Shown piece after piece: positions 1 through 55,521 of a stretch of DNA of 64,000 nucleotides. The position numbers were made by a program, and so were the translations under genes. The stretch lies in NCBI GenBank assembly GCA_015062585.1, contig SUUJ01000003.1, positions 101,774 to 165,773 on the forward strand. The letters are read 5' to 3'. Source of the DNA: Alphaproteobacteria bacterium (GTDB lineage Bacteria; Pseudomonadota; Alphaproteobacteria; RF32; CAG-239). Position 1 is the stretch's first letter; the number at the start of each line of letters is the position of its first letter. A model generated the notes under the pieces. It had not been told where the DNA came from. It made no database searches and saw nothing but the letters and a program-made list of their open reading frames with translations.

Positions 1-8
1 CGTAATGC

Positions 9-141
9 ACAAAAAAACTCGGAGAATAGTACAGATAGAGCGATTTCTAGGAGAGACAAAAATTTTAGCGTACAAATAGCTACGTGAATTTTTGGCTACT
101 CCGTAAAATCGCTCTAGATGTGCTGTTATACGAGTTTTTTA
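9..141 (+). repeat. Copy 1 of a ~130-bp intergenic repeat family resembling Rickettsia palindromic elements (RPE-like); its 3' end coincides with the hydA stop codon
   Basis: Aligns with copies at 12926-13058 and 19242-19366 through the blocks aaaaa(a/t)(c/t)cgga(g/t)aat(a/g)ag ... aaaaatttt(a/g)ag ... gtacaaa ... gtac(a/g)tgaattttt ... gctctaga ... tta(t/g)acga(a/g)ttttt. Contains an internal 11-bp perfect inverted repeat: tagagcgattt at 36-46 pairs with aaatcgctcta at 106-116. Confidence 0.6.
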
Positions 142-1923
142 TTTGTAGACATCACGCTGACGATACTTAGTATGCAGCAATTCGTGGGATTTATGACCAC
201 CTGCTTCACCAAGAAATTCGTCATATAACTTCTTGATTGATTCGTTGTGATGTGACAAACGATTCTTAGCTTGAGTATCTTCGGTGTTCAAACCTTTTGA
301 ACGAAGTTTTCTGACCTCGTCGGTAATACCCCAAGGTTTTTCCATATGTTGCATCATAACTTTTGGCTGACCGCCACCGGAAATACATCCGCCGGGGCAA
401 GCCATAACTTCGATAAAGTGATATGGAAGTTCTTCACCTGCTTCTTGAGCGGCTCTGATATTATCCATAACTTCTTCAACATTGCCTACACCATTAACCA
501 CAGCAATACGAACCTTTGTACCGTTGATATCAACTTCGGCAACTTTTACAGCTTCCAAACCTTCGATAGCCTCAAAGTTTAGCTGACCGAGTTCTTTTCC
601 GGTAATATAGAAGTATGCTGTACGCAAAGCAGCTGTCATCACACCGCCTGTAACACCAAAGATTGTAGCGGCACCGGAATATTCGCCCAAAGGACTATCG
701 GCAGGCTCATCTTTCAATGCCTTAAAGTTAATGCCGGCTTGACGAATCATTTTGGCCAATTCACGAGTAGTCAAAACAACATCAACATCTTGATAGCCTG
801 ATGATGACATGGTTTCATGGCGTCTTACTTCCCATTTTTTGGCGGTACAAGGCATAATAGATACAACTTTTACCTTAGACGCATCCAAGCCCATTTTTTG
901 TGCATAGTAAGTTTTTGCCAAAGCACCGACCATTTGGTGAGGTGACTTACAAGATGACAAGTTCGGCAGGTTTTCAGGATAATATTTTTCAATATAATCA
1001 ACCCATGCCGGACAGCAAGATGTAAACATCGGCAAATTGTCATTATTGGTAAAGCGTTTCACAAATTCAGAAGCTTCTTCAATAATTGTCAAATCAGCTC
1101 CAAAGTTTGTATCAAACACTTTGTTAAAGCCAAGTCTTCTCAAAGCGGCATAGATTTTTTCGGTCAAGTTTGCGCCAAACTCATAACCAAACTCTTCACC
1201 CAAAGCCACTCTTACAGCCGGAGCAATTTGAACAACGGTAACGGTTTCGGGATTTTTAATCATATCCCAAACTTTTTGTGTTTCGTCATATTCAACAATT
1301 GCACCTGTCGGACAGTGAACAGCACATTGACCGCATTTGATACATGGGCTGTCGGCAAGTTTGGTATCGTTAGCACCGGTGATTTTAGTTGCCAAACCAC
1401 GATTTAAATAACTCAATGCCCAAACATTTTGTTCATTTTGGCAGATATCGACACAACGACCGCAAACAATACATTTTGACGGATCCAAAACAATCGATTG
1501 TGTAGAATCATCCAACTCGTCATCTTCAACGATTTTTTGAATCTCGTCGCGATCAACACCCATATGCATTGCCATATCTTGCAATTCACATTGACCGCTT
1601 CTGGCACATTTCAAACAATCATTAGGGTGATTACTCAAAATAAGTTCCAACACGGTTTTTCTGGTTTCGAACAATTCATCATCATTGGTAATAACTTCCA
1701 TACCTTCGCCAACCGGAGTACAGCAAGAACGGATAATGCGACCGTTAACCTTAACAATACACATACCGCAACCTGCTGATGGGTCAACATCAGGGTGTTT
1801 ACACAATGTCGGAATATTTATCTGAACCTTGCGAGCAGCCTCCAAAATACTGGTACCGGCTTCAACTTCAACTTCCATATTATCAATTTTAAGCTTAACC
1901 ATATTATTTCTCCTCTGCATCAA
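139..1923 (-). CDS. hydA: [FeFe]-hydrogenase catalytic subunit (HydA/HndD-like, M3-type). N-terminal 2Fe-2S ferredoxin-like domain, a His-ligated 4Fe-4S site, two 4Fe-4S ferredoxin motifs and the H-cluster domain.
   Basis: H-cluster signature motifs are present: FTSCCPAWV (L1, TSCCP), MPCTAKKWE (L2, MPCxxK) and EVMACPGGCISGGGQP (L3, ExMxCxxGCxxGG). Also CIVCGRCVDIC and CIKCGQCAVHCP (2x 4Fe-4S), HPNDCLKCARSGQC, and an N-terminal CGMC 2Fe-2S motif. 594 aa. Confidence 0.9.
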   Translation of the reverse strand: MMQRRNNMVKLKIDNMEVEVEAGTSILEAARKVQINIPTLCKHPDVDPSAGCGMCIVKVNGRIIRSCCTPVGEGMEVITNDDELFETRKTVLELILSNHPNDCLKCARSGQCELQDMAMHMGVDRDEIQKIVEDDELDDSTQSIVLDPSKCIVCGRCVDICQNEQNVWALSYLNRGLATKITGANDTKLADSPCIKCGQCAVHCPTGAIVEYDETQKVWDMIKNPETVTVVQIAPAVRVALGEEFGYEFGANLTEKIYAALRRLGFNKVFDTNFGADLTIIEEASEFVKRFTNNDNLPMFTSCCPAWVDYIEKYYPENLPNLSSCKSPHQMVGALAKTYYAQKMGLDASKVKVVSIMPCTAKKWEVRRHETMSSSGYQDVDVVLTTRELAKMIRQAGINFKALKDEPADSPLGEYSGAATIFGVTGGVMTAALRTAYFYITGKELGQLNFEAIEGLEAVKVAEVDINGTKVRIAVVNGVGNVEEVMDNIRAAQEAGEELPYHFIEVMACPGGCISGGGQPKVMMQHMEKPWGITDEVRKLRSKGLNTEDTQAKNRLSHHNESIKKLYDEFLGEAGGHKSHELLHTKYRQRDVYK

Positions 1924-3577
1924 CTAATTTATCTAAATATTCATTCTCGTAGAAATTCAGGGTAGACAATACCGGATTAGGAGCAGTTTGACCAAGTCCG
2001 CAAAGCGAAGCTTTTTTCATTGCCGAAGCAATTTTTTTCAACTGTTCCAAATCAGCTTTTGTGCCTTTGCCTTTGTTGATTTTATCCAACAAATTGAGCA
2101 TTTGCTTACCACCGATTCGACAAGGAGAACATTTTCCGCAAGACTCATCTACGGTAAAGTCTAAATAGAACTTAGCTAATGATACCATATCTGAAGAATC
2201 ATCAATAACTATCATACCGCCCGAACCCATAATAGAACCGATTTTTTTCAACTCTTCATAGCATACCGGCATATTCATATAACTTTCCGGAATCACGCCA
2301 CCTGACGGTCCACCTGACTGTACGGCTTTTAATTTTTTGCCATTCGGTACACCACCACCGATTTCATTAACGATTTCGTTAATTGTAGTACCCATCGGAA
2401 CTTCAATCAATCCGGAGTGTTCAACTTGACCGGTCAAAGCAAAAACTTTGGTACCTTTAGATGTTTCTGTACCGAAAGATGCAAACCAATCAGCACCTTT
2501 AAGCAAAATTTTTGACACATTAGCCAAAGTTTCAACATTGTTAACACAAGACGGTTTGCCCCACAAACCTTTGTTTGTCGGATAAGGAGGTCTTGGTCTC
2601 GGAGTACCTCTGGCGCCTTCAATTGAGTGAATCAAAGCAGTTTCTTCACCGCAAACAAATGCACCGGCACCAAGTCTGATGTCAATATTAAAGCAGAAAT
2701 CTGTTCCCATAATATTGTTACCGAGCAAGCGATTCTTTTTACAAGCTTTGATAGCTTTTTCCAATCTTTCAACAGCTAAAGGATATTCGGCACGAACATA
2801 GAACCATCCTTCTGTTGCTCCGATTGCATAAGCAGCTATCATCATACCTTCAATAACGGCGTGCGGATCTCCCTCTAAGATTGAACGATCCATATAGGCA
2901 CCGGGGTCACCTTCATCACCGTTACAGATAATAAATTTTTCATCTATAGTCGGAACTTTGGCAGCCAACTCCCATTTCATACCGGTAGAAAAACCACCGC
3001 CACCGCGACCGCGCAAACCAGATTTTTTAATTTCTTCAACAACCTGAGCCGGTGTCATATTTTTCAAAGCTTTTTCCAAAGCCAAATAACCGCCTCTTGC
3101 CATATATTCTTGAATATCTTCAGGGTCAATATGACCGGCATTCTTCAAAACAACTTTTTCTTGTTTGGTAAAGAAAGGCAAATCTAAAGACAATACATAT
3201 TGCTGAACTTCTTGAGGAACGGCAAAAGGCTCATCGCTTTCGATTGCCGGCAATACATATTTATCCATAATATTTTGTACAGCTTCCAAATCAACGCGTT
3301 TGAACAACACATCTTTTTGCCCTTTGATTTCCACTCTGATAAGAGGTCCCTGAGCACAAAGCCCCATACATCCTGTTGCCACGATTCTTATTTTGTCTTC
3401 AACCTGTTTTTCGGCAATCACATTTTTCATCAAATCAAGGATACCATCACTGCCTGATGATTTACAACCTGTTGAATGACAACAATAAATACTGCATTTA
3501 TATTTTTCAATTTCTGCAAGCTTAGTTTCAGCTATGGCATGAATATCAAATCTTTTATCCAAATCTATTTCGGCCAT
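1904..3577 (-). CDS. hydB: NADH-binding flavoprotein subunit of the hydrogenase (NuoF/51-kDa family, HydB/HndC-like) with an N-terminal thioredoxin-like 2Fe-2S domain
   Basis: GLRGRGGGGFSTGMKWE (NuoF FMN/NADH motif); C-terminal ESCGKCSPCRIGG (NuoF 4Fe-4S); N-terminal CCHSTGC...GCMGLC. Overlaps the hydA start by 20 nt, indicating an operon. Confidence 0.85.
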   Translation of the reverse strand: MAEIDLDKRFDIHAIAETKLAEIEKYKCSIYCCHSTGCKSSGSDGILDLMKNVIAEKQVEDKIRIVATGCMGLCAQGPLIRVEIKGQKDVLFKRVDLEAVQNIMDKYVLPAIESDEPFAVPQEVQQYVLSLDLPFFTKQEKVVLKNAGHIDPEDIQEYMARGGYLALEKALKNMTPAQVVEEIKKSGLRGRGGGGFSTGMKWELAAKVPTIDEKFIICNGDEGDPGAYMDRSILEGDPHAVIEGMMIAAYAIGATEGWFYVRAEYPLAVERLEKAIKACKKNRLLGNNIMGTDFCFNIDIRLGAGAFVCGEETALIHSIEGARGTPRPRPPYPTNKGLWGKPSCVNNVETLANVSKILLKGADWFASFGTETSKGTKVFALTGQVEHSGLIEVPMGTTINEIVNEIGGGVPNGKKLKAVQSGGPSGGVIPESYMNMPVCYEELKKIGSIMGSGGMIVIDDSSDMVSLAKFYLDFTVDESCGKCSPCRIGGKQMLNLLDKINKGKGTKADLEQLKKIASAMKKASLCGLGQTAPNPVLSTLNFYENEYLDKLVDAEEK

Positions 3578-3579
3578 TA

Positions 3580-4053
3580 TTAGTTCTCCTCAAAAGTTTT
3601 GCGCCATTCATCCAAAATAACCGGAACATCATCCGGAGTAACACGGCCATAAGTTTTACCGTTCACCACGCAAACAGGTGCCAAACCGCAACATCCTACA
3701 CAACGCACACTTTGTAAGTGGAACAATTTGTCAGGTGTACTTTCGCCTTCTTCAACACCGAGTTCTTGTTTAAATCTTTCCAAAACCTTGTCATTACCTT
3801 TCAAATAACAAGCTGTACCGGTACATACTGATATCACAGCCTTACCCGGAGCTTCCAATTTGAAAAAGTTATAAAAAGTTAAAACCTCATAGATTCTGGC
3901 CAAAGGAATATTCATTCCCAAAGCCACATCAACGGCATCTTGCCAATCGATATATCCTTTAACGCCTTGAATTTCATGCAAAGCCATAATTAAAGACCCG
4001 CGCTTTTTACGCCATTTATTGGCTGTTTGCGCTGCTTGAGAAACATCAACCAT
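3580..4053 (-). CDS. hydC: NuoE/24-kDa-like thioredoxin-fold 2Fe-2S subunit of the hydrogenase (HydC/HndA-like)
   Basis: Cys motifs CTGTACYLKG and CVGCCGLAPV are typical of the NuoE family. 157 aa. Lies 2 nt upstream of hydB on the same strand. Confidence 0.8.
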   Translation of the reverse strand: MVDVSQAAQTANKWRKKRGSLIMALHEIQGVKGYIDWQDAVDVALGMNIPLARIYEVLTFYNFFKLEAPGKAVISVCTGTACYLKGNDKVLERFKQELGVEEGESTPDKLFHLQSVRCVGCCGLAPVCVVNGKTYGRVTPDDVPVILDEWRKTFEEN

Positions 4054-4221
4054 AATTTTCTCCCTGTTGTAACAATGTTCATCAAAAATGATAAAGAATT
4101 TGTTTTTGTTTTCAAGATAATAATTAGTTGCTACACCAAATTATTATGAATATTCACAAAATTGAAACCAAACACCACAAAAAACTTTAAATATAAAATA
4201 AAACTATTATAATCGCCCCTT
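4054..4221. promoter_or_regulatory. Divergent intergenic region that should carry the promoters of the hydCBA operon and of the lptFG-lptD-surA-ksgA cluster
   Basis: 168-bp AT-rich non-coding gap between divergently oriented start codons. No specific operator motif was identified with confidence. Confidence 0.3.
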
Positions 4222-26136: not shown

Positions 26137-28566
26137 CTAATCTTTAGCTGCCGGTTCAATTCTCATAGCGTAGAAAGAACGCCATACAAATATCAAACCG
26201 AGTACAAAGAAGCCTATTCCAAGTCCCAATGCCACACATTTTGGAGCGGCGACGGCCATTTCAACAGCCAACAATCCAAATAATGTGGTAAACTTAATAA
26301 TCGGGTTTAATGCAACTGATGATGTATCTTTATAAGGATCACCAACAGTATCGCCTACAACTGACGCATCATGTAAAGCTGTACCTTTTTCACCCAAATC
26401 AACTTCAACAACCTTTTTAGCGTTGTCCCAAGCGCCACCGGCATTAGCCATGTACAAAGCTTGGAAAAGACCAAATACGGCTATTGAAATCAAATAGCTG
26501 GCAAACAAACTTGCATCAAAGCACGCAAAAGCAATTGTAAATGAGAAAATTACAATAAATATGTTAAACATACCTTTTTGCGCATATACGGTACAAATTT
26601 GTACAACTTTCTTAGAATCTTCAATCGAAGCAGCTTTTGCTGTATTAAGCTTGATGTGTTTCTTAATATAGTTCACTGCACGATATGCACCTGTCGAAAC
26701 AGCCTGCATTGAAGCACCCGAGAACCAAAAGATAACGGCACCACCAAGGATAATACCGAACAACACCATCGGATCCAAAAGGTTAAGTTGCAAGTTCAAT
26801 AACAAGATTATTGAGAAAATCATGGTTGTCGCACCGATAACAGCAGTTCCGATTAGCACCGGTTTTGCAGTTGCCTTAAAGGTATTACCGGCAGAGTCAT
26901 TTTCTTCCAAAAAGTGCTTACCGCCTTCAAAATCAGGTTTAAATCCATAAGTTTTCTCGATTTCTTTATCGATTCCCTTAATACTTTCGATTTGTGATAA
27001 TTCAAATACTGATTGAGCATTGTCGGTAACCGGACCATAAGAGTCAACGGCAATAGTAACAGGGCCCATACCAAGCATACCGAATGCCACCAAACCAAAA
27101 GCAAAAATTGTCGGATAAACCATAAAAGCATCCAAACCGCTTCTGGCAGTAAAGAAAGCCACAGCCATAAGACCGACCATAACCAATCCTTGCCAAAAAG
27201 CAGAGAAGTTGCCGGCAACAATACCGGAAATAATGTTCAATGAAGCACCGGCCTCACGCGAAGCATTAACAACTTCTTCAACATGTTTAGATTTTGATGA
27301 TGTAAAGATTTTGGTAAATTCCGGTATCAAAGCAGCTGCCATCGTACCGCAAGAAATAATGACCGAAAGTTTCCACCACAAATCCGGCGACATTTCACCA
27401 ATCATAACATAAGAAACACCGAAGGTTACGGCAATTGAAACAACTGCTGTCAACCAAATCAAACTGGTCAACGGAGTTTCAAAGTTAAATGCTTTTTTAT
27501 TTCCATACAAAGCCTTGGCGACACCACTGTTAATCCAATAAGAAACAATAGATGTCAAAACCATCAGCAAGCGCATTGCAAAAATCCAAACAATCAAGCG
27601 AGCTTGGATATCGATTCCATTGTTAAGCATTACCAAATCACCGTTTTTAGCCCACATCATACCGGCACCCAAAACGATAAATGAAATCAAAGCAACACCT
27701 GTAACACCATATGTTTCAAAACCATCGGCAGTAGGGCCAACGCTATCACCGGCATTATCACCGGTACAATCGGCAATCACACCTGGGTTTCTTGCATCAT
27801 CTTCATCAATTTTGAATATAATTTTCATCAAGTCTGCACCGATATCCGCGATTTTGGTAAAAATACCACCGCAAATACGCAATGCCGAAGCACCCAATGA
27901 TTCACCTATTGCAAAACCGATAAAACAAGCACCCGCGTTTTCTTTATCAACAAACAAAAGTATTGAAATCATCATAACAAGTTCAACACAAATAAGTAAA
28001 ACGCCGATAGACATTCCCGAACGCAAAGGCAAACTCATCACCGGAAAAGGTTTTCCCTTCAATGACAAGAAAGCCGTACGCGAGTTTGCATAGGTGTTAA
28101 TTCTCATACCAAACCATGCTACCGCATATGAACCCAAAATTCCCAATACTGACCACGCCAAAACTGTCATTACTTTCGGTAACGGAGTTGCATTTAAGTA
28201 ATAGAAATAATAGAAAATACACACGGCAATAAATACTTCTAACACTATCAACAATTTTGCCTGCTGTTTCATATATGTTTTGCAAGTTTCGTAAATAGTG
28301 TGCGAAACATTTAACATAGCCTTATGCGCCGGCAATTTTTTGATTCCGAAAAATTCACCCAAGCCGAACAACAATCCGACTAAGCACACACCCAATCCGT
28401 ACAACAAAATTTGCGATCCGGTAAGCGAAAGCCCAAAAATGTTATAAGCAACATCAAGTGATGGAATTTTCAAATCAATTTCCGAAGCTAAGGCATTTGA
28501 ACCAAAAGACAGCAAAGCTATCAAAGTCCAAAAAGTTACATCCTTAATTTTTCTAAAATTTATCAT
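26137..28566 (-). CDS. hppA: Membrane-bound proton- or sodium-translocating pyrophosphatase (V-PPase)
   Basis: DNAGDSVGPTADGFETYG and DTVGDPYKDTSSVALNPIIK match conserved V-PPase motifs (GDTIGDPxKDTSGP). 809-aa polytopic membrane protein. Confidence 0.85.
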   Translation of the reverse strand: MINFRKIKDVTFWTLIALLSFGSNALASEIDLKIPSLDVAYNIFGLSLTGSQILLYGLGVCLVGLLFGLGEFFGIKKLPAHKAMLNVSHTIYETCKTYMKQQAKLLIVLEVFIAVCIFYYFYYLNATPLPKVMTVLAWSVLGILGSYAVAWFGMRINTYANSRTAFLSLKGKPFPVMSLPLRSGMSIGVLLICVELVMMISILLFVDKENAGACFIGFAIGESLGASALRICGGIFTKIADIGADLMKIIFKIDEDDARNPGVIADCTGDNAGDSVGPTADGFETYGVTGVALISFIVLGAGMMWAKNGDLVMLNNGIDIQARLIVWIFAMRLLMVLTSIVSYWINSGVAKALYGNKKAFNFETPLTSLIWLTAVVSIAVTFGVSYVMIGEMSPDLWWKLSVIISCGTMAAALIPEFTKIFTSSKSKHVEEVVNASREAGASLNIISGIVAGNFSAFWQGLVMVGLMAVAFFTARSGLDAFMVYPTIFAFGLVAFGMLGMGPVTIAVDSYGPVTDNAQSVFELSQIESIKGIDKEIEKTYGFKPDFEGGKHFLEENDSAGNTFKATAKPVLIGTAVIGATTMIFSIILLLNLQLNLLDPMVLFGIILGGAVIFWFSGASMQAVSTGAYRAVNYIKKHIKLNTAKAASIEDSKKVVQICTVYAQKGMFNIFIVIFSFTIAFACFDASLFASYLISIAVFGLFQALYMANAGGAWDNAKKVVEVDLGEKGTALHDASVVGDTVGDPYKDTSSVALNPIIKFTTLFGLLAVEMAVAAPKCVALGLGIGFFVLGLIFVWRSFYAMRIEPAAKD

Positions 28567-34125: not shown

Positions 34126-36150
34126 ATGTCAAAAACCAAATATCTTCAAATGCAACAAACATCAGCTTTGTTGCCGTTTGATTTCAACAAGAAAAAATTT
34201 AGTATCACATATAGTGTTCCTTCATCTCCTTTTGCTTTAGAGATTCAAAACTTAGGAAAATGTCAATGTTTGGGCAATCACAAGTGGTCCGATCCCGAAA
34301 AGATAAACGGCTGGATGATATCAGCCGAAACAGCCACTTTTATGAAAGCAGGCGGACTTGGAATGATTGCATCGGAATTGCCCGAAGCTTTTAACCGTAA
34401 ATATTTATCACAAGATGAAAGTCTTACCGTCATCACCCCTATGTATTTAGGTGATACCAAAAAGAAAAAAGCACACTTTGACGGTAAAACTTATTTTGGC
34501 GCCGAGAACAAATCTGCTGACTTGCAAAAACTATGCGACATAACTGTTCCGTTTATGAATGAAAATCAAGAGTTTGTCGATTATTCCGTAACCGTATATA
34601 AAGGAACTTGTGAAAACACTCCTTACATTTTTATGTCAAATGAAAGATTTTTCAATATTGACCCGCACAATGACAATCCGCCGGCTCAAGATGGTTGTTA
34701 CATCTTAAACAAATACGGAATTAACGAAGTAGAGCGTTTTGCTTTCTTCTCAAAAGCCGTATATGAGTTTGTTAAATATTCAATAAAAACTCATACCCAA
34801 CCCTCAACCATCATTGCAAATGACTGGCACTCGGGCGCTCTTTCCGGTTTGATGAAATATCTCCCAATATCTTTGGTAAGCAAAAATCTAATGTCAGAGG
34901 AAGACGCTGATAAAATACGCTCGATTCCCATAATTCATATTGCTCATCACTTGGGCTATCAAGGATGGGATTATCCTAATACTGCTCGTATTTTAAACTC
35001 CTTGTACGAGCTTCAAACAAACTTTGTATTTAAAAACGCCAAAACAATCAAAAATTCAAACAAGCGTACGGTAAATACTTTGATTGTTCACGATTGCTAC
35101 AACCAAGCATCTTGCAACTTTCATTTAGCCGACAGAGTTGTTACCGTATCTAAAAACTATTTGGAAGAAGTTTCCAAAGAGCTCGAATTGGGTTATGATT
35201 TTCGTGATATCTTAAAAATTCGCAAAGACCACCGTACCTTTTTTGGTATAATCAACGGCTACGACAAAAAGTTAATCTCACCAAATGAACAAAAAGTAAA
35301 AGCCATTAACGATTTCTTTGGCAACACAAACTTTAAGATGTTTGATGAAAAATCAATGGATAATAAAAAGCACAACAAATCTGAGTTCATAAAGCTTATA
35401 TCCAAAATATCGACCGATGAAGAGTATAAACAAAAACTTATTCCTCTTATTGATACCTATAAATTTGAAGATATTTCAAAAGATGTAAAAAATTTTGCTA
35501 AAACTCCGATTATTTGCGCAACATCACGCTTGGTAGAACAAAAAGGTTACGATATCGGAGCTCAAGCAATACTTAACTGGATAAAGAAACACACTGATGA
35601 AAATATTGAGTTTCCGATATTTTTACTTGGTGGTGCCGGAAGTGTCGAACTGTTCAAAATGCTCACAAAACTCAAAGACAAAGTCGCAAAAATAAACAAA
35701 GAAGCAGCCAAACGCATATATGTTTTTCATGGCTACAAAGATCAATTTGCCTATGCTATGCAACTGGCTTCCGATTTTTATATGATGCCATGTCGTTTTG
35801 AACCTTGCGGCTTGACACAAATGGAAGCCATGGCTAAAGGAGCTCTTCCGATTGCAACATCTACCGGAGGTTTGGTCGATTCCATAGATGATAAGATTGA
35901 TGGCTTCAGAACAGAAGTATTTTTCTCTAATTCGCGCCATGTTTACGGAAATAACACCACTGCTCGCCGCTTGCAAAACAACGAAAACGCTTTTAGCGAA
36001 ACTTTGGATGAATCACTTCAAACATTCTATGATATGCCAAACTTCATTACTGCAATGCAACGCCGAGCCATGGAAAAAGACTTCAGTTGGGACACAGCCG
36101 GAGGGTCATTAGAAAAATATCACACCCTGTTCCACCGAGGACACCCGTAA
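34126..36150 (+). CDS. GT5/GT1 glycosyltransferase resembling glycogen/starch synthase (GlgA-like), enlarged to 674 aa
   Basis: N-terminal MKAGGLGMIASELPEAF (compare GlgA KxGGLGDV) and C-terminal MMPCRFEPCGLTQMEAMAKGALPIATSTGGLVDSI (GlgA/starch-synthase E-x7-E region). Confidence 0.6.
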   Translation: MSKTKYLQMQQTSALLPFDFNKKKFSITYSVPSSPFALEIQNLGKCQCLGNHKWSDPEKINGWMISAETATFMKAGGLGMIASELPEAFNRKYLSQDESLTVITPMYLGDTKKKKAHFDGKTYFGAENKSADLQKLCDITVPFMNENQEFVDYSVTVYKGTCENTPYIFMSNERFFNIDPHNDNPPAQDGCYILNKYGINEVERFAFFSKAVYEFVKYSIKTHTQPSTIIANDWHSGALSGLMKYLPISLVSKNLMSEEDADKIRSIPIIHIAHHLGYQGWDYPNTARILNSLYELQTNFVFKNAKTIKNSNKRTVNTLIVHDCYNQASCNFHLADRVVTVSKNYLEEVSKELELGYDFRDILKIRKDHRTFFGIINGYDKKLISPNEQKVKAINDFFGNTNFKMFDEKSMDNKKHNKSEFIKLISKISTDEEYKQKLIPLIDTYKFEDISKDVKNFAKTPIICATSRLVEQKGYDIGAQAILNWIKKHTDENIEFPIFLLGGAGSVELFKMLTKLKDKVAKINKEAAKRIYVFHGYKDQFAYAMQLASDFYMMPCRFEPCGLTQMEAMAKGALPIATSTGGLVDSIDDKIDGFRTEVFFSNSRHVYGNNTTARRLQNNENAFSETLDESLQTFYDMPNFITAMQRRAMEKDFSWDTAGGSLEKYHTLFHRGHP

Positions 36151-53904: not shown

Positions 53905-54612
53905 TTAGTTATATTTATAAAGATCTTTGCCTTTAACCTTAAGCCACTTTCTTGACTCCTGATAACAGGGACACAATTCTTCAACCGTCTTCCAAAACAA
54001 TGTGGAATGATTAGGATGTTTAAGGTGTGAAACTTCATGGCATACCAAATAATCAATAACATCCGAAGGAGCCAAGACGATTCGCCAATTATAGTTTATA
54101 TTTCCTTTTGTTGAACAACTGCCCCAACGCGATTTTGTATCTTTTACACTGACCGAAGCTATTTTTACGCCAATTTTTTGTGCTTTTGCCAAAGATATTT
54201 CAGCCAATTTATCTACGGCTTCTTTTTTCAAAAAATCTTTTACCCTACGATGCAAAAAACTTTTGTCTCCGCCAACTTTTAAGATATCATTTTCAAAACA
54301 AGTTCCCTTGTGCTTATCATCATGAGCTATTGTATACTCTTTACCGAACACACTTATTTTTTCACCATCGGCAAAATCAGAAGCCTTTGGAAGTTTGGCC
54401 AACATATTAACAATCCAATCTTCATTGGATTTCAAAAAATTTAAGGCTTGTTTTTTTGAACAATACTTCGGAATACTCAAAACCGGACAATGGCATTTTT
54501 CATCAATCCGCAACACCAATTTTTTTGCGACTGATGATTTTTTTACCTTTATTTCAAAATCAAAATCTTTAGAAAAATCAAAGGTCTTGCCAGTCAACAA
54601 TGTGATTCTCAT
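53905..54612 (-). CDS. YgjP-like metal-dependent hydrolase (DUF45/WLM-like HExxH)
   Basis: VCHEVSHLKHPNHS HExxH...H motif. 235 aa. Confidence 0.7.
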   Translation of the reverse strand: MRITLLTGKTFDFSKDFDFEIKVKKSSVAKKLVLRIDEKCHCPVLSIPKYCSKKQALNFLKSNEDWIVNMLAKLPKASDFADGEKISVFGKEYTIAHDDKHKGTCFENDILKVGGDKSFLHRRVKDFLKKEAVDKLAEISLAKAQKIGVKIASVSVKDTKSRWGSCSTKGNINYNWRIVLAPSDVIDYLVCHEVSHLKHPNHSTLFWKTVEELCPCYQESRKWLKVKGKDLYKYN

Positions 54613-55084
54613 AATCCCTAACCTCTGTTTCCGAAATCAATTTTCTTCCCTTTAACGACTGCTTTGATTCGTGTATTGACGACGCTTTTTTAGTAATCAA
54701 AGGGTGCCACTCAGGCAAATCTTTTCCGTCTGCCAACAACCTGTAAGCACAAGTTTTAGGTAATATTTCCGGCTCGCTCAAAACTGTTTTAAGATCAATA
54801 TCTCGACAATCATCTACCTTTTCAAACCTATGCTCATATATCTGACACAAACAAGTTTCCTCGTCCAAAAAACGACATTTTGCATTAGTAAAACAAACTT
54901 TTCCTCTGATGTCTATTTTGTTCAAACAGCATTTTCCGCAGCCGTCACATAGCAACTCCCATTCATCTTTAGACAAATCTTCCAATTTTTTCTTTTTCCA
55001 AAATTCCGGCTCAAATTTATCCAAATTATCAAATCTGGATTGCGGATCATATTTTTCATCAGGCCAATTATTCATTTTTATCAA
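54578..55084 (-). CDS. ycgN: YcgN/UPF0260 family Cys-rich protein (copy 1)
   Basis: CDGCGKCCLNK ... CRFLD ... CLCQIYEHR Cys cluster and KTCAYRLLADGKDLPEWHPL. Confidence 0.7.
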   Translation of the reverse strand: MIKMNNWPDEKYDPQSRFDNLDKFEPEFWKKKKLEDLSKDEWELLCDGCGKCCLNKIDIRGKVCFTNAKCRFLDEETCLCQIYEHRFEKVDDCRDIDLKTVLSEPEILPKTCAYRLLADGKDLPEWHPLITKKASSIHESKQSLKGRKLISETEVRDYENHIVDWQDL

Positions 55085-55521
55085 AAACTTTCATCTTCTA
55101 TAATATAATCTTCCAAATTATCTTCATCTATCAAATTGTCCGCCACCAAATTTTGCGGCAATTCAGGAATATTTGTTTGTTTATTTTTCAACGGATGCCA
55201 CTCCGGTAAATCGCCGGTTTCATTTAATATCCTATATGCACATTTTTTAGGCATCCAATCCAATTTATCAATATTTTTCGGTGTAACTTTTAAGCACTCC
55301 GGAACCAAAATACAGCGATTCTTATATTCTTTGCATAGTCTTGTTTTTGTATCAAACAAACGACAAATTACCCTTGTATAATAAACCTCATCACTATCTT
55401 CATCTTGGACTTTTACCAAACAACACAAGCCGCAATTACAACAAATTTGCTCCCATTCGTTTTCAGCAAATTCGCTCAAAGGTTTATTTTTCCAAAATGC
55501 TTTTTTCAATCTATTCACCAC
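55081..55521 (-). CDS. YcgN/UPF0260 family Cys-rich protein (copy 2, tandem paralog)
   Basis: CCNCGLCCLVK ... CRLFD ... CKEYKNR and KKCAYRILNETGDLPEWHPL. Overlaps copy 1 by 4 nt. Confidence 0.7.
   Translation of the reverse strand: MVNRLKKAFWKNKPLSEFAENEWEQICCNCGLCCLVKVQDEDSDEVYYTRVICRLFDTKTRLCKEYKNRCILVPECLKVTPKNIDKLDWMPKKCAYRILNETGDLPEWHPLKNKQTNIPELPQNLVADNLIDEDNLEDYIIEDESF

What the first reader, a model, noticed from the sequence alone, without database searches (positions are those of the whole stretch)
139..4053. Complete three-subunit [FeFe]-hydrogenase operon (NuoE-like, NuoF-like, HydA) in a reduced alphaproteobacterial-type genome
All three H-cluster signature motifs are readable in the 594-aa product: TSCCP, MPCxxK and ExMACxxGCxxGGGQP. 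The upstream partners carry the NuoF FMN/NADH motif GRGGGGFSTGMKW and NuoE-type 2Fe-2S cysteine motifs. The genes overlap, so they are translationally coupled. This is the architecture of NADH-linked (possibly electron-confurcating) HydABC/Hnd hydrogenases and of hydrogenosomal hydrogenase modules. The flanking genes are ordinary alphaproteobacterial core synteny (lptFG-lptD-surA-ksgA on one side) in a roughly 30-35% GC genome. That points to a Rickettsiales/Holosporales-like, possibly anaerobic, endosymbiont with H2 metabolism. Such a combination is rare and bears directly on hydrogenosome/mitochondrion evolution scenarios. No maturase genes (hydE, hydF, hydG) lie in this window. HydB lacks the C-terminal 2x[4Fe-4S] ferredoxin extension seen in Thermotoga HydB, so the subunit composition is intermediate.
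Basis: partly seen in the sequence, partly recalled or inferred. Interest (0 to 1): 0.9.

Follow-up and report, generated by a model that had tools for sequence, protein, structure and literature searches.

The report
Gut alphaproteobacterial NADH-linked [FeFe]-hydrogenase operon
This is a real, intact three-gene iron-iron hydrogenase operon, but it belongs to an uncultured rumen/gut alphaproteobacterium rather than an endosymbiont, this kind of operon was already reported in such bacteria in 2016, and its only unusual feature is a flavoprotein subunit that has lost the whole ferredoxin-reducing branch.

Summary
hydC (3580-4053), hydB (1904-3577) and hydA (139-1902) sit on the minus strand as a compact promoter-to-terminator unit. 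Every H-cluster and accessory-cluster ligand of CpI is conserved in HydA. The same hydCBA/lptF junction occurs in 8 independent MAG contigs, so it is not a chimera.

The host is an uncultured rumen/colon alphaproteobacterium (probably RF32-like, 36.6% GC), not a Rickettsiales-like endosymbiont. The exact proteins are already in GenBank (MBE6467435-37). HymABC-like hydrogenase operons with NuoE/F homologues in uncultured gut alphaproteobacteria were published in 2016 with the same hydrogenosome framing. HydB and HydC belong to the bifurcating "Bfu" lineage, not to complex I NuoF/NuoE, the source of hydrogenosomal NuoE/F. A 60%-identical truncated operon sits in an unrelated 67%-GC organism, which suggests lateral transfer.

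What is worth noting: HydB lacks the C-terminal 2x[4Fe-4S] domain (B3, B4) and all five B2 ligands, consistently across the clade. It keeps the N-terminal [2Fe-2S] (B5) and the bifurcating-type flavin-pocket residues. I predict a ferredoxin-independent, non-bifurcating NADH:H2 enzyme of a cofactor complement not yet characterised. Maturases were not found in the window or in any fetched locus.

The parts
3580..4053 (-). hydC. NuoE-like 157-aa subunit with one [2Fe-2S] cluster (C1; Cys77, Cys82, Cys118, Cys122).
   Evidence: PF01257 at 154 bits. Best solved relatives are HydC of A. mobile (130.7 bits) and T. kivui (124.6 bits), with the Cys ligands aligned. Identical to GenBank MBE6467437.1.
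1904..3577 (-). hydB. 557-aa NuoF-like FMN/NADH subunit of the Bfu lineage, truncated. It keeps B5 [2Fe-2S] (Cys33/38/70/74), FMN and B1 [4Fe-4S] (Cys480/483/486/526). It lacks B2, B3 and B4.
   Evidence: Pfam domains. Alignments to 7t2r_B and 7q4v_B end at about residue 528 of 597. Column-by-column table. GenBank MBE6467436.1, mis-named 'subunit L'.
3257..3499 (-). HydB N-terminal thioredoxin-like [2Fe-2S] domain (B5), residues 27-107.
   Evidence: PF01257 partial match at residues 27-107. Four Cys are conserved with A. mobile, A. woodii and Sphaerochaeta.
2513..3031 (-). HydB FMN/NADH-binding domain, residues 183-355. Contains GRGGGGFSTGMKW, DPG-A227-Y-M229-DR and GAGA-F307-VCGEET.
   Evidence: PF01512 at 153.7 bits. 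Motif columns. Criteria from PMC7311640 and PMC9304861.
1907..2179 (-). HydB [4Fe-4S] B1 domain and the short C-terminal tail. The B2-ligand positions are substituted (N501, K550; D463 lies just upstream), and the protein ends at K557 with no CPxGxC motif and no 2x[4Fe-4S] domain.
   Evidence: PF10589 at 105 bits. B2 ligands per PMC8880783. Alignment and tails.
139..1902 (-). hydA. 587-aa M3-type group A [FeFe]-hydrogenase catalytic subunit (FS2, His-ligated FS4C, FS4A/B, H-domain, small-subunit-like C-terminus).
   Evidence: Pfam and NCBIfam. Ligand-by-ligand alignment to CpI, T. kivui and A. woodii HydA. GenBank MBE6467435.1, 587 aa.
373..1239 (-). HydA H-cluster domain, with Cys296/Cys297 (TSCCP), Cys352/Lys355 (MPCTAKK) and Cys502/Cys506 (MACPGGC).
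   Evidence: PF02906 at 340 bits. Equivalent to CpI C299/C300, C355/K358 and C499/C503.
4088..4115 (-). Sigma-70-like promoter candidate upstream of hydC (TTGAAA, 16 nt, TATCAT) in the 168-bp divergent hydC/lptF intergenic region. An AGGGAGA Shine-Dalgarno lies 6 nt before the hydC ATG.
   Evidence: Consensus scan, 10 of 12 matches. Sequence. Pattern match only; not shown to function.
1903..1917 (-). hydB-hydA junction. GAGGAG Shine-Dalgarno inside the hydB 3' end, TAA at 1906-1904, a 1-nt spacer, then the ATG at 1902.
   Evidence: Sequence read directly.
3578..3592 (-). hydC-hydB junction. GAGGAG Shine-Dalgarno in the hydC 3' end, TAA at 3582-3580, a 2-nt spacer, then the ATG at 3577.
   Evidence: Sequence read directly.
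12..140 (-). Extended hairpin flanked by A- and T-runs, starting in the hydA stop codon. Probable operon terminator.
   Evidence: MFE -44.9 kcal/mol, z = -7.15, 0 of 200 shuffles fold as well. Relatives have a terminator-like hairpin at the same place: long in L001/L002, short and canonical in L003/4/6/10.

Best explanation
hydC-hydB-hydA is a functional, chromosomally fixed operon of an uncultured anaerobic rumen/colon alphaproteobacterium (probably order RF32). It encodes a heterotrimeric group A [FeFe]-hydrogenase of the HydABC (Bfu) lineage.

Proposed electron path (inferred). NADH donates a hydride to the FMN in HydB. Electrons then pass through the HydB [4Fe-4S] cluster B1 into the HydA chain (FS2, the His-ligated cluster, two [4Fe-4S] clusters) and on to the H-cluster, where protons are reduced to H2, or the reverse. 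The HydC [2Fe-2S] (C1) and the HydB N-terminal [2Fe-2S] (B5) sit beside the flavin as in the solved complexes.

Why I predict no bifurcation (inferred). This HydB has lost the whole low-potential branch. All five B2 ligands and the C-terminal 2x[4Fe-4S] domain (B3, B4), which the structural models use to reach ferredoxin, are gone. The enzyme should therefore be a ferredoxin-independent, non-bifurcating NADH:H+ oxidoreductase. It would behave like Syntrophomonas wolfei Hyd1ABC, although it descends from the bifurcating clade and keeps that clade's flavin-pocket residues.

Physiology (inferred). In the gut it would reoxidise fermentative NADH when H2 consumers keep H2 low (tens of Pa), and it could run backwards (H2 to NADH) when H2 is high.

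Shown: gene integrity, every cofactor ligand, clade-wide conservation of the truncation, operon structure, lineage placement. Inferred: cofactor occupancy, absence of ferredoxin coupling, direction of catalysis, and maturation by HydEFG encoded elsewhere.
For: 1. All catalytic and cluster ligands of HydA match CpI, T. kivui and A. woodii. HydA exceeds the NCBIfam group A6 cutoff.
2. HydB aligns end-to-end with bifurcating HydBs up to residue about 528 of about 597, then stops.
3. In all 10 alphaproteobacterial loci the B2 ligands of A. mobile HydB (C438, C476, H525, C531, C536; PMC8880783) are D, N, K, absent and absent. No B3/B4 Cys motifs exist. The nearest full-length relatives (Sphaerochaeta, 595 aa) keep them all.
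4. B1, B5, C1 and the FMN/NADH motifs are intact.
5. The Bfu family is defined by five BfuB clusters, and characterised non-bifurcating homologues lack subsets of B2-B5 (PMC9304861; PMC11406978). S. wolfei HydB1, which lacks the terminal clusters, is experimentally ferredoxin-independent (PMC5626996).
6. Hyd proteins are 85-96% identical across MAGs whose flanking LptD/LptF are only 62-80% identical. This indicates purifying selection, and the truncation is stable.
7. No ferredoxin-type ORF lies anywhere in the 64-kb window.
8. Operon signals are present: promoter-like site, Shine-Dalgarno sequences at both junctions, terminator hairpin.
9. Fermentative context in a related MAG: a group B1 [FeFe]-hydrogenase and AdhE lie next to hydCBA.
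Against: - The residue signatures proposed to discriminate bifurcating from non-bifurcating HydB (PMC7311640; A202/M204 in PMC9304861) all read 'bifurcating' here: A227, M229, F307, GGPSG.
- B5 and C1, which S. wolfei-type HydB partly lacks, are retained.
- HydB groups inside the full-length Bfu clade rather than with complex-I-like sequences.
- No biochemical data exist for any member of this truncated subgroup.
- Maturases HydE/F/G were not found in the window or in about 10 kb around hyd in any related locus, so activity rests on genes I could not see.
- Rumen H2 is often above the roughly 70 Pa equilibrium for NADH alone (the 70 Pa figure is from PMC5626996; the rumen level is my own knowledge). 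Net H2 evolution from NADH alone may therefore be limited.
Confidence: 0.6

Rival explanations
1. The enzyme is still an electron-confurcating/bifurcating HydABC. Ferredoxin would dock somewhere other than B3/B4, for example at the HydB N-terminal B5 cluster, at C1, or at the distal His-ligated or FS2 clusters of HydA as in CpI. The flavin would still split electron pairs.
For: All bifurcation-type residues around FMN/NADH are conserved (A227, M229, F307, GGPSG), and so are B5 and C1. HydB nests within the full-length Bfu clade. Related gut alphaproteobacteria are reported to have PFOR and ferredoxin (PMC4967309), so reduced ferredoxin is available. The bifurcation mechanism of HydABC is still debated between structural studies.
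Against: Both structural models route low-potential electrons through B2 and/or B3-B4. All five B2 ligands and the whole B3/B4 domain are missing throughout the clade. The C-terminal Cys residues are conserved in all biochemically characterised bifurcating [FeFe]-hydrogenases (PMC9499530). No substitute ferredoxin gene is in the operon or the window.
Confidence: 0.2
2. The enzyme works mainly as an uptake hydrogenase. It would use gut H2 to reduce NAD+, feeding biosynthesis or an anaerobic respiratory chain, rather than disposing of NADH as H2.
For: H2 to NAD+ is exergonic under standard conditions. S. wolfei Hyd1ABC catalyses both directions without ferredoxin. NADH-only H2 evolution stalls near 70 Pa, and gut H2 is often higher (my own knowledge). 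Without the ferredoxin branch the enzyme loses the thermodynamic push that confurcation gives to H2 evolution.
Against: A related MAG places hydCBA next to AdhE and a second, monomeric hydrogenase, which is a fermentative setting. No terminal reductase or respiratory genes are in the window. Direction cannot be read from sequence.
Confidence: 0.25
3. The operon marks a Rickettsiales/Holosporales-like anaerobic endosymbiont, and its HydA plus NuoE/F-like module is evolutionarily linked to hydrogenosomal hydrogenase modules.
For: The flanks are alphaproteobacterial and the genome is AT-rich. Ruminant RF32 genomes are reduced, about 1.6 Mb (PMC8199421). Degli Esposti et al. argued for alphaproteobacterial ancestry of eukaryotic [FeFe]-hydrogenases from similar MAGs.
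Against: - The nearest genomes are gut-content MAGs, one labelled Rhodospirillaceae.
- The window encodes complete envelope and housekeeping functions.
- HydB and HydC are Bfu-type. They score 301 and 46 bits against Paracoccus NuoF/NuoE, but 668 and 131 bits against bifurcating HydB/HydC.
- Hydrogenosomal NuoE/F branch with complex I.
- The closest relatives of the operon outside the clade are in a 67%-GC organism (DnaB 35% identical) and in Sphaerochaeta, which suggests lateral acquisition.
Confidence: 0.05
4. The hyd segment is a mis-assembly (chimera) or a decaying pseudo-operon.
For: The tetranucleotide correlation of 1-4000 with the whole window is 0.90, against 0.96-0.98 elsewhere. GC is 40.4% against 36.3%. 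HydB is truncated relative to characterised enzymes.
Against: The same gpsA-ksgA-surA-lptD-lptF / hydC-hydB-hydA order occurs in 8 independent MAG contigs from different studies and hosts. Identical proteins occur on 14-21 contigs, including a 329.8-kb one. GC3 and codon usage match the neighbours. There are no frameshifts or stops, all ligands are intact, and the Hyd proteins are more conserved than the flanks.
Confidence: 0.02

Closest known systems
Electron-bifurcating HydABC [FeFe]-hydrogenases (T. kivui 8a6t, A. woodii 7q4v/8a5e, T. maritima 7p5h) and the wider Bfu family, including A. mobile NiFe-HydABCSL 7t2r
   Same: - Same three subunits, and the same hydC-hydB-hydA order as the Sphaerochaeta relatives.
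- Highest sequence similarity: HydA 590/570 bits, HydB 668/648/586/544 bits, HydC 131/125 bits.
- Same HydA cluster chain, B1, B5, C1 and FMN.
- Same flavin-pocket residues (A, M, F, GGPSG).
   Different: HydB lacks all five B2 ligands and the C-terminal B3/B4 2x[4Fe-4S] domain. This fails the family's defining 'five clusters in BfuB' feature. HydA also lacks the T. maritima-specific C-terminal [2Fe-2S] domain.
[quoted passage not shown]
   Same: Heterotrimeric HydABC with a HydB that lacks the C-terminal cluster domain. Predicted ferredoxin-independent NADH:H2 chemistry. Both live in H2-scavenged anaerobic consortia.
   Different: S. wolfei HydB1 is 407 aa and also lacks the N-terminal [2Fe-2S]. 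The window HydB is 557 aa and keeps it. The Losey residue signature (T/S, K/S/A, Y, no GGPSG) is not met; the window has A, M, F, GGPSG. In the tree it sits with full-length Bfu HydBs.
HymABC-like [FeFe]-hydrogenase operons of uncultivated human-gut alphaproteobacteria ('Acetobacter sp. CAG:977', 'Azospirillum sp. CAG:239'; Degli Esposti et al. 2016, PMC4967309)
   Same: Long M3-type HydA adjacent to NuoE- and NuoF-like genes, in AT-rich uncultured gut Alphaproteobacteria. Maturases and PFOR are encoded elsewhere in the genome.
   Different: I could not retrieve those sequences to test identity or whether their HydB is truncated. The 2016 paper does not discuss the HydB cluster complement. The present organism comes from ruminant-type samples.
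Sub-type II BfuABC of Hydrogenedentota, Acidobacteriota and Planctomycetota (Zheng & Huang 2024, PMC11406978)
   Same: Natural BfuB variants missing cluster domains and predicted to be non-bifurcating.
   Different: Those lack B3, B4 and B5. The window type lacks B2, B3 and B4 and keeps B5.
Hydrogenosomal Hyd + NuoE/NuoF (Trichomonas; Caecomyces churrovis, PMC13556243)
   Same: HydA working with a 24-kDa-like and a 51-kDa-like flavoprotein pair. Non-bifurcating NADH-dependent H2 production was demonstrated for the fungal complex. NuoF lacks the extra clusters.
   Different: Eukaryotic NuoE/F descend from mitochondrial complex I. The window HydB/HydC are Bfu-type: TIGR01959 NuoF at 473 bits is below the 558.65 cutoff, and PDB scores are about 285-301 bits for complex I against 668 for HydB.

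Membership tests
Group A [FeFe]-hydrogenase catalytic subunit (HydA, M3 architecture) | H-cluster motifs L1 (TSCCP), L2 (MPCxxKxxE) and L3 (ExMACxGGCxxGGGQP), with the four Cys that bind [4Fe-4S]H and bridge to [2Fe]H. | tested here: met
   Cys297, Cys352, Cys502 and Cys506 (587-aa numbering) align to CpI C300, C355, C499 and C503. Cys296 = C299, Lys355 = K358, Met350/Met500 = M353/M497. E279, E282, R286 and S319 equivalents are conserved.
Group A [FeFe]-hydrogenase catalytic subunit (HydA, M3 architecture) | N-terminal accessory clusters: FS2 [2Fe-2S], His-ligated FS4C, FS4A and FS4B. | tested here: met
   All 16 ligands align with CpI, T. kivui and A. woodii. Pfam PF13510, PF10588 and Fer4 domains are present.
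Group A [FeFe]-hydrogenase catalytic subunit (HydA, M3 architecture) | Curated profile thresholds. | tested here: met
   PF02906 340 bits (cutoff 22.1). PF02256 73.3 bits (cutoff 24). TIGR02512 526 bits (cutoff 406). NF040763 802.7 bits (cutoff 765).
Group A [FeFe]-hydrogenase catalytic subunit (HydA, M3 architecture) | HydE, HydF and HydG maturases in the same genome. | not testable with these tools
   None in the 64-kb window, in 10 kb beyond hydA on the source contig, or in any of 21 loci. Reported for related gut alphaproteobacterial MAGs (PMC4967309).
Electron-bifurcating HydABC / Bfu family | BfuB (HydB) carries five Fe-S clusters, B1-B5. These include the B2 site (Cys438, Cys476, His525, Cys531, Cys536 in A. 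mobile) and the C-terminal 2x[4Fe-4S] B3/B4. | tested here: not met
   The window and all 10 related loci have D, N and K at the first three B2 positions and terminate 4-9 residues later. There is no CPxGxC and no CxxCxxCxxxCP motif. Sphaerochaeta relatives keep them.
Electron-bifurcating HydABC / Bfu family | Bfu-type residues around FMN/NADH: A202 and M204 in A. mobile numbering (= A/E232 and M234 in T. maritima), F367 (T. maritima) and GGPSG. | tested here: met
   DPG-A227-Y-M229-DR, GAGA-F307-VCGEET and G422-GPSG-426. Criteria. The mapping to T. maritima numbers is by motif identity, not by a direct alignment to 7p5h_B.
Electron-bifurcating HydABC / Bfu family | BfuC (HydC) with one [2Fe-2S] (C1), and BfuB with B1 and the N-terminal B5. 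| tested here: met
   HydC Cys77/82/118/122. HydB Cys480/483/486/526 (B1) and Cys33/38/70/74 (B5).
Electron-bifurcating HydABC / Bfu family | Tightly coupled NAD(H)- and ferredoxin-dependent H2 turnover. | not testable with these tools
   Requires enzymology.
Non-bifurcating NADH-dependent [FeFe]-hydrogenase (S. wolfei Hyd1ABC type) | HydB lacks the C-terminal [4Fe-4S] cluster domain. | tested here: met
   S. wolfei description.
Non-bifurcating NADH-dependent [FeFe]-hydrogenase (S. wolfei Hyd1ABC type) | HydB lacks the N-terminal [2Fe-2S] (about 400 aa). | tested here: not met
   The window HydB is 557 aa with an intact four-Cys N-terminal domain. S. wolfei HydB1 is 407 aa.
Non-bifurcating NADH-dependent [FeFe]-hydrogenase (S. 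wolfei Hyd1ABC type) | Losey 2020 residue signature: T/S at Tm232, K/S/A at Tm234, Y at Tm367, no GGPSG. | tested here: not met
   The window has A, M, F and GGPSG.
Non-bifurcating NADH-dependent [FeFe]-hydrogenase (S. wolfei Hyd1ABC type) | Beta subunit falls in the separate non-bifurcating clade. | tested here: inconclusive
   In the NJ tree, window + L008 + P0181 (100% bootstrap) lie inside a 100% clade with all full-length Bfu HydBs, apart from complex-I-like K204 sequences. No authentic S. wolfei sequence was available to include, and internal nodes are unresolved.
Respiratory complex I NuoE/NuoF (and the hydrogenosomal 24/51-kDa subunits derived from it) | Passes NuoF/NuoE equivalog thresholds and is closest to complex I subunits. 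| tested here: not met
   - TIGR01959 473 bits, below the 558.65 cutoff.
- TIGR01958 122 bits, below 142.4.
- PDB scores for NuoF: T. thermophilus Nqo1 393, Paracoccus 301, mitochondrial about 285, against 668 for A. mobile HydB.
- HydC scores 46 bits against Paracoccus NuoE and 131 against A. mobile HydC.
- The genes are not in a nuo operon.
Rickettsiales/Holosporales-type obligate endosymbiont (host claim) | Closest genomes are Rickettsiales/Holosporales, and gene content is that of an obligate intracellular bacterium. | tested here: not met
   The closest 11 genome loci are gut or rumen 'Alphaproteobacteria bacterium' or 'uncultured Rhodospirillaceae' MAGs. The window holds Lpt, Tol-Pal, an LpoA-like gene, Mpl, AddAB, Na+-PPase and a GlgA-like gene. 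Marker-gene taxonomy (GTDB) was not run. RF32 is inferred from PMC8199421.

The most novel reading that the evidence does not exclude
The truncated clade (gut alphaproteobacteria plus the 67%-GC P0181 lineage) is a natural 'minimal Bfu'. It keeps the bifurcating-type flavin pocket, B5 and C1, but has no B2-B4.

There are two possible outcomes:
- If it still confurcates NADH and ferredoxin, the current structural models that route low-potential electrons through B2-B4 would be wrong or incomplete.
- If it does not, it shows that the 'diagnostic' flavin-pocket residues (A/M/F/GGPSG) do not determine bifurcation.

The genuinely surprising outcome, bifurcation without B2-B4, is the novel case scored here.
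Probability: 0.12. Interest if true: 0.65.

Novelty: new variant of a known kind. Interest (0 to 1): 0.3.

Why it matters
The headline (an [FeFe]-hydrogenase with NuoE/F-like partners in an alphaproteobacterium) is already in the literature and in GenBank. My evidence also weakens its use as support for an alphaproteobacterial origin of hydrogenosomal H2 metabolism. The diaphorase subunits are of the Bfu lineage, not the complex I lineage, and the operon type is shared with unrelated bacteria.

The residual value is mechanistic and ecological.
- Mechanism: this widespread gut clade carries a HydB whose sequence criteria for bifurcation conflict. Cluster content says 'non-bifurcating', while flavin-pocket residues say 'bifurcating'. 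That makes it a convenient natural test case in the still-open debate on how HydABC enzymes bifurcate.
- Annotation: pipelines such as HydDB group A3, the NCBI 'A6' model and the GenBank label 'subunit L' will misjudge its physiology.
- Ecology: whether these abundant rumen and colon alphaproteobacteria are NADH-driven H2 producers or H2 consumers affects H2 budgets relevant to methanogenesis.

Tried and rejected
1. Chimeric assembly. Rejected, because the junction is conserved in 8 independent MAG contigs and the exact proteins recur on 14-21 contigs.
2. Recent horizontal transfer seen in composition. GC3 and codon-usage distance of the hyd genes (0.31-0.34; 0.097-0.100) fall inside the range of 37 neighbouring genes. 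Only a mild tetranucleotide dip remains (0.90 against 0.96-0.98). I treat this as a protein-composition effect or ancient transfer, unresolved.
3. Maturase hunt. I read all ORFs of 140 aa or more in the window, the downstream regions of L002 and L008 and the source contig, and ran a CxxxCxxC / GTPase motif scan over the window plus 19 loci. Nothing was found.
4. A separately encoded ferredoxin replacing B3/B4. The only CxxCxxCxxxC[P] motif in all six frames of the window is inside HydA.
5. Conserved RNA element downstream of hydA. The long hairpin is shared only with the two closest MAGs. RNAalifold found no consensus across seven loci. I interpret it as a terminator variant.
6. Literature search for RF32 hydrogenase physiology. 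Nothing specific turned up beyond the MAG catalogue paper.
7. Calls that produced no result. Searches were rejected for term syntax. The first NJ bootstrap timed out and was redone with a faster script.
8. Eukaryote-inclusive HydA phylogeny. Not possible.
9. Direct alignment to T. maritima HydB (7p5h_B) for Losey's numbering. Only the top alignments are printed, so positions were mapped through the invariant motifs instead.

Full report
**What is there.**
The minus strand of window 139-4053 carries three tightly packed ORFs.
- hydC: 3580-4053, 157 aa.
- hydB: 1904-3577, 557 aa.
- hydA: listed mechanically as 139-1923, 594 aa with a TTG start.

- HydA: PF02906 (340 bits), PF02256, PF10588, PF13510 and Fer4 domains.
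- HydB: PF01512, SLBB, PF10589 and an N-terminal thioredoxin-like [2Fe-2S] segment.
- HydC: PF01257.

HydA passes the curated NCBIfam model NF040763 'NADH-dependent [FeFe] hydrogenase, group A6' (802.7 bits, cutoff 765). The NuoF and NuoE equivalog models are missed (473 against 558.65; 122 against 142.4).

**Gene starts and operon signals.**
The true hydA start is the ATG at 1902, giving 587 aa.
- All relatives are 587-588 aa.
- GenBank and JGI call it so.
- A GAGGAG Shine-Dalgarno sits 8 nt upstream, inside the end of hydB.

The genes therefore do not overlap. The spacers are 1 nt (hydB-hydA) and 2 nt (hydC-hydB), each with an upstream Shine-Dalgarno. A TTGAAA-16-TATCAT promoter-like site lies at 4115-4088. 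An unusually stable extended hairpin flanked by A- and T-runs begins in the hydA stop codon (dG -44.9 kcal/mol, z = -7.15). Relatives have a terminator-like hairpin at the same spot. hydCBA is a self-contained three-gene unit.

**Catalytic competence of HydA.**
I compared HydA with CpI and with the HydA subunits of the T. kivui and A. woodii HydABC complexes. Everything needed is conserved:
- CpI C299/C300 (TSCCP).
- M353/C355/K358/E361 (MPCTAKKWE).
- M497/C499/C503 (MACPGGC).
- The proton-path residues E279, E282, R286 and S319.
- All 16 ligands of FS2, the His-ligated FS4C, FS4A and FS4B.

Nothing suggests a Nar1-like or sensory protein.

**It is not an assembly artefact.**
tblastn of the window proteins against 16 genome loci was run (loci). 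It shows the order gpsA-ksgA-surA-lptD-lptF / hydC-hydB-hydA in eight independent MAG contigs from different projects and hosts. The Hyd proteins are 85-96% identical there, while LptD and LptF are only 62-80% identical. The operon is therefore under stronger constraint than its neighbours. The exact window proteins are GenBank MBE6467435.1, MBE6467436.1 and MBE6467437.1. They occur on 14-21 contigs, including the 329,832-bp JGI contig the window evidently comes from. GC3 and codon usage match the 37 neighbouring genes. Only the tetranucleotide correlation is slightly lower (0.90 against 0.96-0.98).

**Who carries it.**
The nearest genomes are 'MAG: Alphaproteobacteria bacterium' from sheep colon, sheep rumen and roe-deer omasum. 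There are also SGB bins and 'uncultured Rhodospirillaceae bacterium RUG803'. The paper that produced the RGIG MAGs states that uncultured ruminant Alphaproteobacteria are largely order RF32. It describes them as having reduced genomes (about 1.59 Mb) and lost amino-acid biosynthesis (PMC8199421). RF32 membership is an inference; I could not run marker-gene taxonomy.

The window (36.6% GC) encodes ordinary envelope and housekeeping functions:
- lptF, lptD, surA-like, ksgA, gpsA, smpB, tilS, cpoB, pal, ychF, pth, recR, dnaX and SRP RNA.
- An LpoA-like protein, rsmI, a Na+-pyrophosphatase (1295 bits), mpl, grpE and a GlgA-like protein.
- rsmB, leuS, lptE-like, holA, addAB, rdgB, rph, dnaB and three tRNAs.

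This is a reduced but free-standing Gram-negative gut anaerobe. It is not a Rickettsiales/Holosporales-type endosymbiont. In a related rumen MAG (L008), hydCBA is followed by a group B1 monomeric [FeFe]-hydrogenase (509.9 bits, cutoff 450) and AdhE (1379 bits). That is a fermentative gene set.

**It is already known at headline level.**
Degli Esposti et al. 2016 (PMC4967309) reported that uncultivated human-gut alphaproteobacteria carry a long M3 [FeFe]-hydrogenase. The organisms were 'Acetobacter sp. [quoted passage not shown] The gene is adjacent to NuoE and NuoF homologues ('resembles the hymABC operon'). HydE/F/G, PFOR and ferredoxin are encoded elsewhere in those genomes.

**The evolutionary claim is weakened.**
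- HydB scores 668, 648, 586 and 544 bits against the bifurcating HydBs of A. mobile, A. woodii, T. kivui and T. maritima. It scores only 393 against T. thermophilus Nqo1, 301 against Paracoccus (alphaproteobacterial) NuoF and about 285 against mitochondrial NDUFV1.
- HydC behaves the same way: 131 bits against A. mobile HydC and 46 against Paracoccus NuoE.
- Published phylogenies place hydrogenosomal and mitochondrial NuoE/F with alphaproteobacterial complex I, far from bacterial HydB/HydC (PMC7449678; PMC13556243).
- The best representative in a 1.84-billion-protein library is P0181 (61% identical, 565 aa). It sits in its own hydC-hydB-hydA operon on a 67%-GC contig whose DnaB is only 35% identical to the window's.
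- The next relatives are Sphaerochaeta operons at 47-55% identity.

The operon type therefore moves between distant anaerobes. It is unlikely to be an alphaproteobacterial heirloom.

**The one unusual feature is HydB.**
This is correct and goes further. In A. mobile HydB the B2 site is ligated by Cys438, Cys476, His525, Cys531 and Cys536. B3 and B4 lie in the C-terminal ferredoxin-like domain (PMC8880783; PMC9499530).

In the window protein and all ten alphaproteobacterial homologues these positions are Asp463, Asn501 and Lys550. The chain then ends 4-9 residues later. The 595-aa Sphaerochaeta proteins retain C, T, H, CPxGxC and two CxxCxxCxxxCP motifs.

By contrast, several features are intact:
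- B1 (Cys480/483/486/526).
- The N-terminal B5 [2Fe-2S] (Cys33/38/70/74).
- HydC C1 (Cys77/82/118/122).
- The residues proposed as hallmarks of bifurcating HydB: Ala227 and Met229 (= A202/M204 in A. mobile, 232/234 in T. maritima), Phe307 (= F367 in T. maritima) and GGPSG.

So the two published kinds of criteria conflict.
- Cluster complement says non-bifurcating. The Bfu family is defined by five BfuB clusters, and characterised non-bifurcating homologues lack subsets of B2-B5 (PMC9304861; PMC11406978).
- Residue signatures say bifurcating.

The experimentally non-bifurcating S. wolfei HydB1 is 407 aa and also lacks the N-terminal cluster (PMC5626996). 'Sub-type II' BfuB lacks B3, B4 and B5. 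The window type (B1 + B5, no B2-B4) is a third complement.

A Kimura-distance NJ tree was built on 386 core columns with 200 bootstraps. It groups window + L008 + P0181 at 100%, inside a 100% clade containing all full-length Bfu HydBs. That clade is separate from complex-I-like sequences with Lys at the M204 position. Other short forms (P0224 from rumen Oscillospiraceae, P0228, P0280) arose independently. Many short homologues keep the B2 motif and lack only B3/B4, for example a HoxF diaphorase, P0188. No stand-alone ferredoxin gene exists anywhere in the window.

**Most likely mechanism.**
Shown: an intact HydA electron chain and H-cluster site, an intact FMN/NADH site, B1, B5 and C1, and no B2-B4.

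Inferred: NADH reduces FMN. Electrons flow from B1 through the HydA clusters to the H-cluster, giving H2, and the path is reversible. With the branch to ferredoxin deleted, the enzyme should be ferredoxin-independent and non-bifurcating, like S. wolfei Hyd1ABC. NADH-only H2 evolution equilibrates near 70 Pa, and the measured values were 17-40 Pa. Net production therefore needs H2 scavenging by methanogens or acetogens or a high NADH/NAD+ ratio. At higher gut H2 the enzyme could run as an NAD+-reducing uptake hydrogenase. I put about 0.6 on the non-bifurcating reading. I put about 0.2 on retained confurcation through another docking site, because of the conserved flavin pocket, B5 and C1. Direction in vivo is open.

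**What could not be settled.**
- Maturases were not found in the window, on 10 kb of the source contig beyond hydA, or in any fetched locus. Their presence rests on the 2016 report for related MAGs.
- I could not verify whether the CAG:977 and CAG:239 HydBs are truncated.

**Verdict.**
The enzyme identification is right. The host, rarity and evolutionary significance are overstated, and the headline is already published and deposited. The residual interest is the clade-wide, laterally shared loss of the whole B2-B4 branch in a HydB that otherwise looks bifurcating. That is a new variant of a known kind and a useful natural test case, not a discovery of a new system. Interest is about 0.3.

Noticed in passing
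window 12-140 (minus strand): A roughly 125-nt extended hairpin flanked by A6 and T7 runs, starting in the hydA stop codon (dG -44.9 kcal/mol, z = -7.15). The two closest MAGs (L001, L002) share the long form. More distant relatives have short canonical terminators at the same position.
   Followed up: partly
L008 12524-16587: In a rumen alphaproteobacterial MAG, hydCBA is followed directly by a group B1 monomeric [FeFe]-hydrogenase (TIGR04105 509.9 bits, cutoff 450; TSCCA / SPCFAKRRE / MSCSGGC motifs) and a bifunctional AdhE (1379 bits). This suggests two hydrogenases with different electron donors in a fermentative cluster.
   Followed up: partly
L017 9499-13471 (ENA ERZ10759792, 67% GC contig): A second lineage carries the same truncated HydB type (P0181, 565 aa; S, S, K at the B2 positions) in a hydC-hydB-hydA operon. 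Its HydB and HydC are 60-62% identical to the window's, but its DnaB is only 35% identical. The host is unidentified.
   Followed up: partly
GenBank MBE6467436.1 (= window 1904-3577): The deposited annotation names HydB 'NADH-quinone oxidoreductase subunit L', and HydA only '2Fe-2S iron-sulfur cluster binding domain-containing protein'. These are mis-annotation and under-annotation that would hide the hydrogenase from keyword surveys.
   Followed up: yes
L020 12622-19066 (source contig beyond window position 1): Beyond hydA lie infB-ylxR-nusA-rimP and then a second LptF/LptG-family permease. hydCBA plus the nusA-infB block therefore sits between the two LPS-permease genes, which are usually adjacent. 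In L002 the same position instead holds a 1328-aa Cys-rich secreted repeat protein (L002 12504-16490).
   Followed up: no
window 54578-55521 (minus strand): Two tandem Cys-rich YcgN-like paralogues (168 and 146 aa; 'CGKCCLNK' / 'CGLCCLVK') overlap by 4 nt, immediately downstream of dnaB.
   Followed up: no
window 26137-28566 (minus strand): An 809-aa membrane pyrophosphatase matching the sodium-translocating PPase equivalog (NF001950, 1295 bits, cutoff 826). This is an ion-motive device consistent with an energy-limited anaerobe.
   Followed up: partly
window 34126-36150 (plus strand): A 674-aa GlgA-like protein with a long divergent N-terminal region. It scores below every glycogen-synthase cutoff (best 209.6 bits against 328).
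   Followed up: no
P0208 / P0343: A HydB-like protein, one member labelled 'Candidatus Woesearchaeota', has lost the B2 ligands (S, L, L) but keeps the C-terminal B3/B4 ferredoxin domain. This is the reciprocal pattern to the many homologues that keep B2 and lack B3/B4.
   Followed up: no
window 1-4000: The tetranucleotide-frequency correlation with the whole window is 0.90, against 0.96-0.98 for every other 4-kb chunk. GC is 40.4% against 36.3%, although GC3 and codon usage are host-like. This is compatible with an old lateral acquisition or simply with the Cys/Gly-rich, highly conserved proteins.
   Followed up: partly
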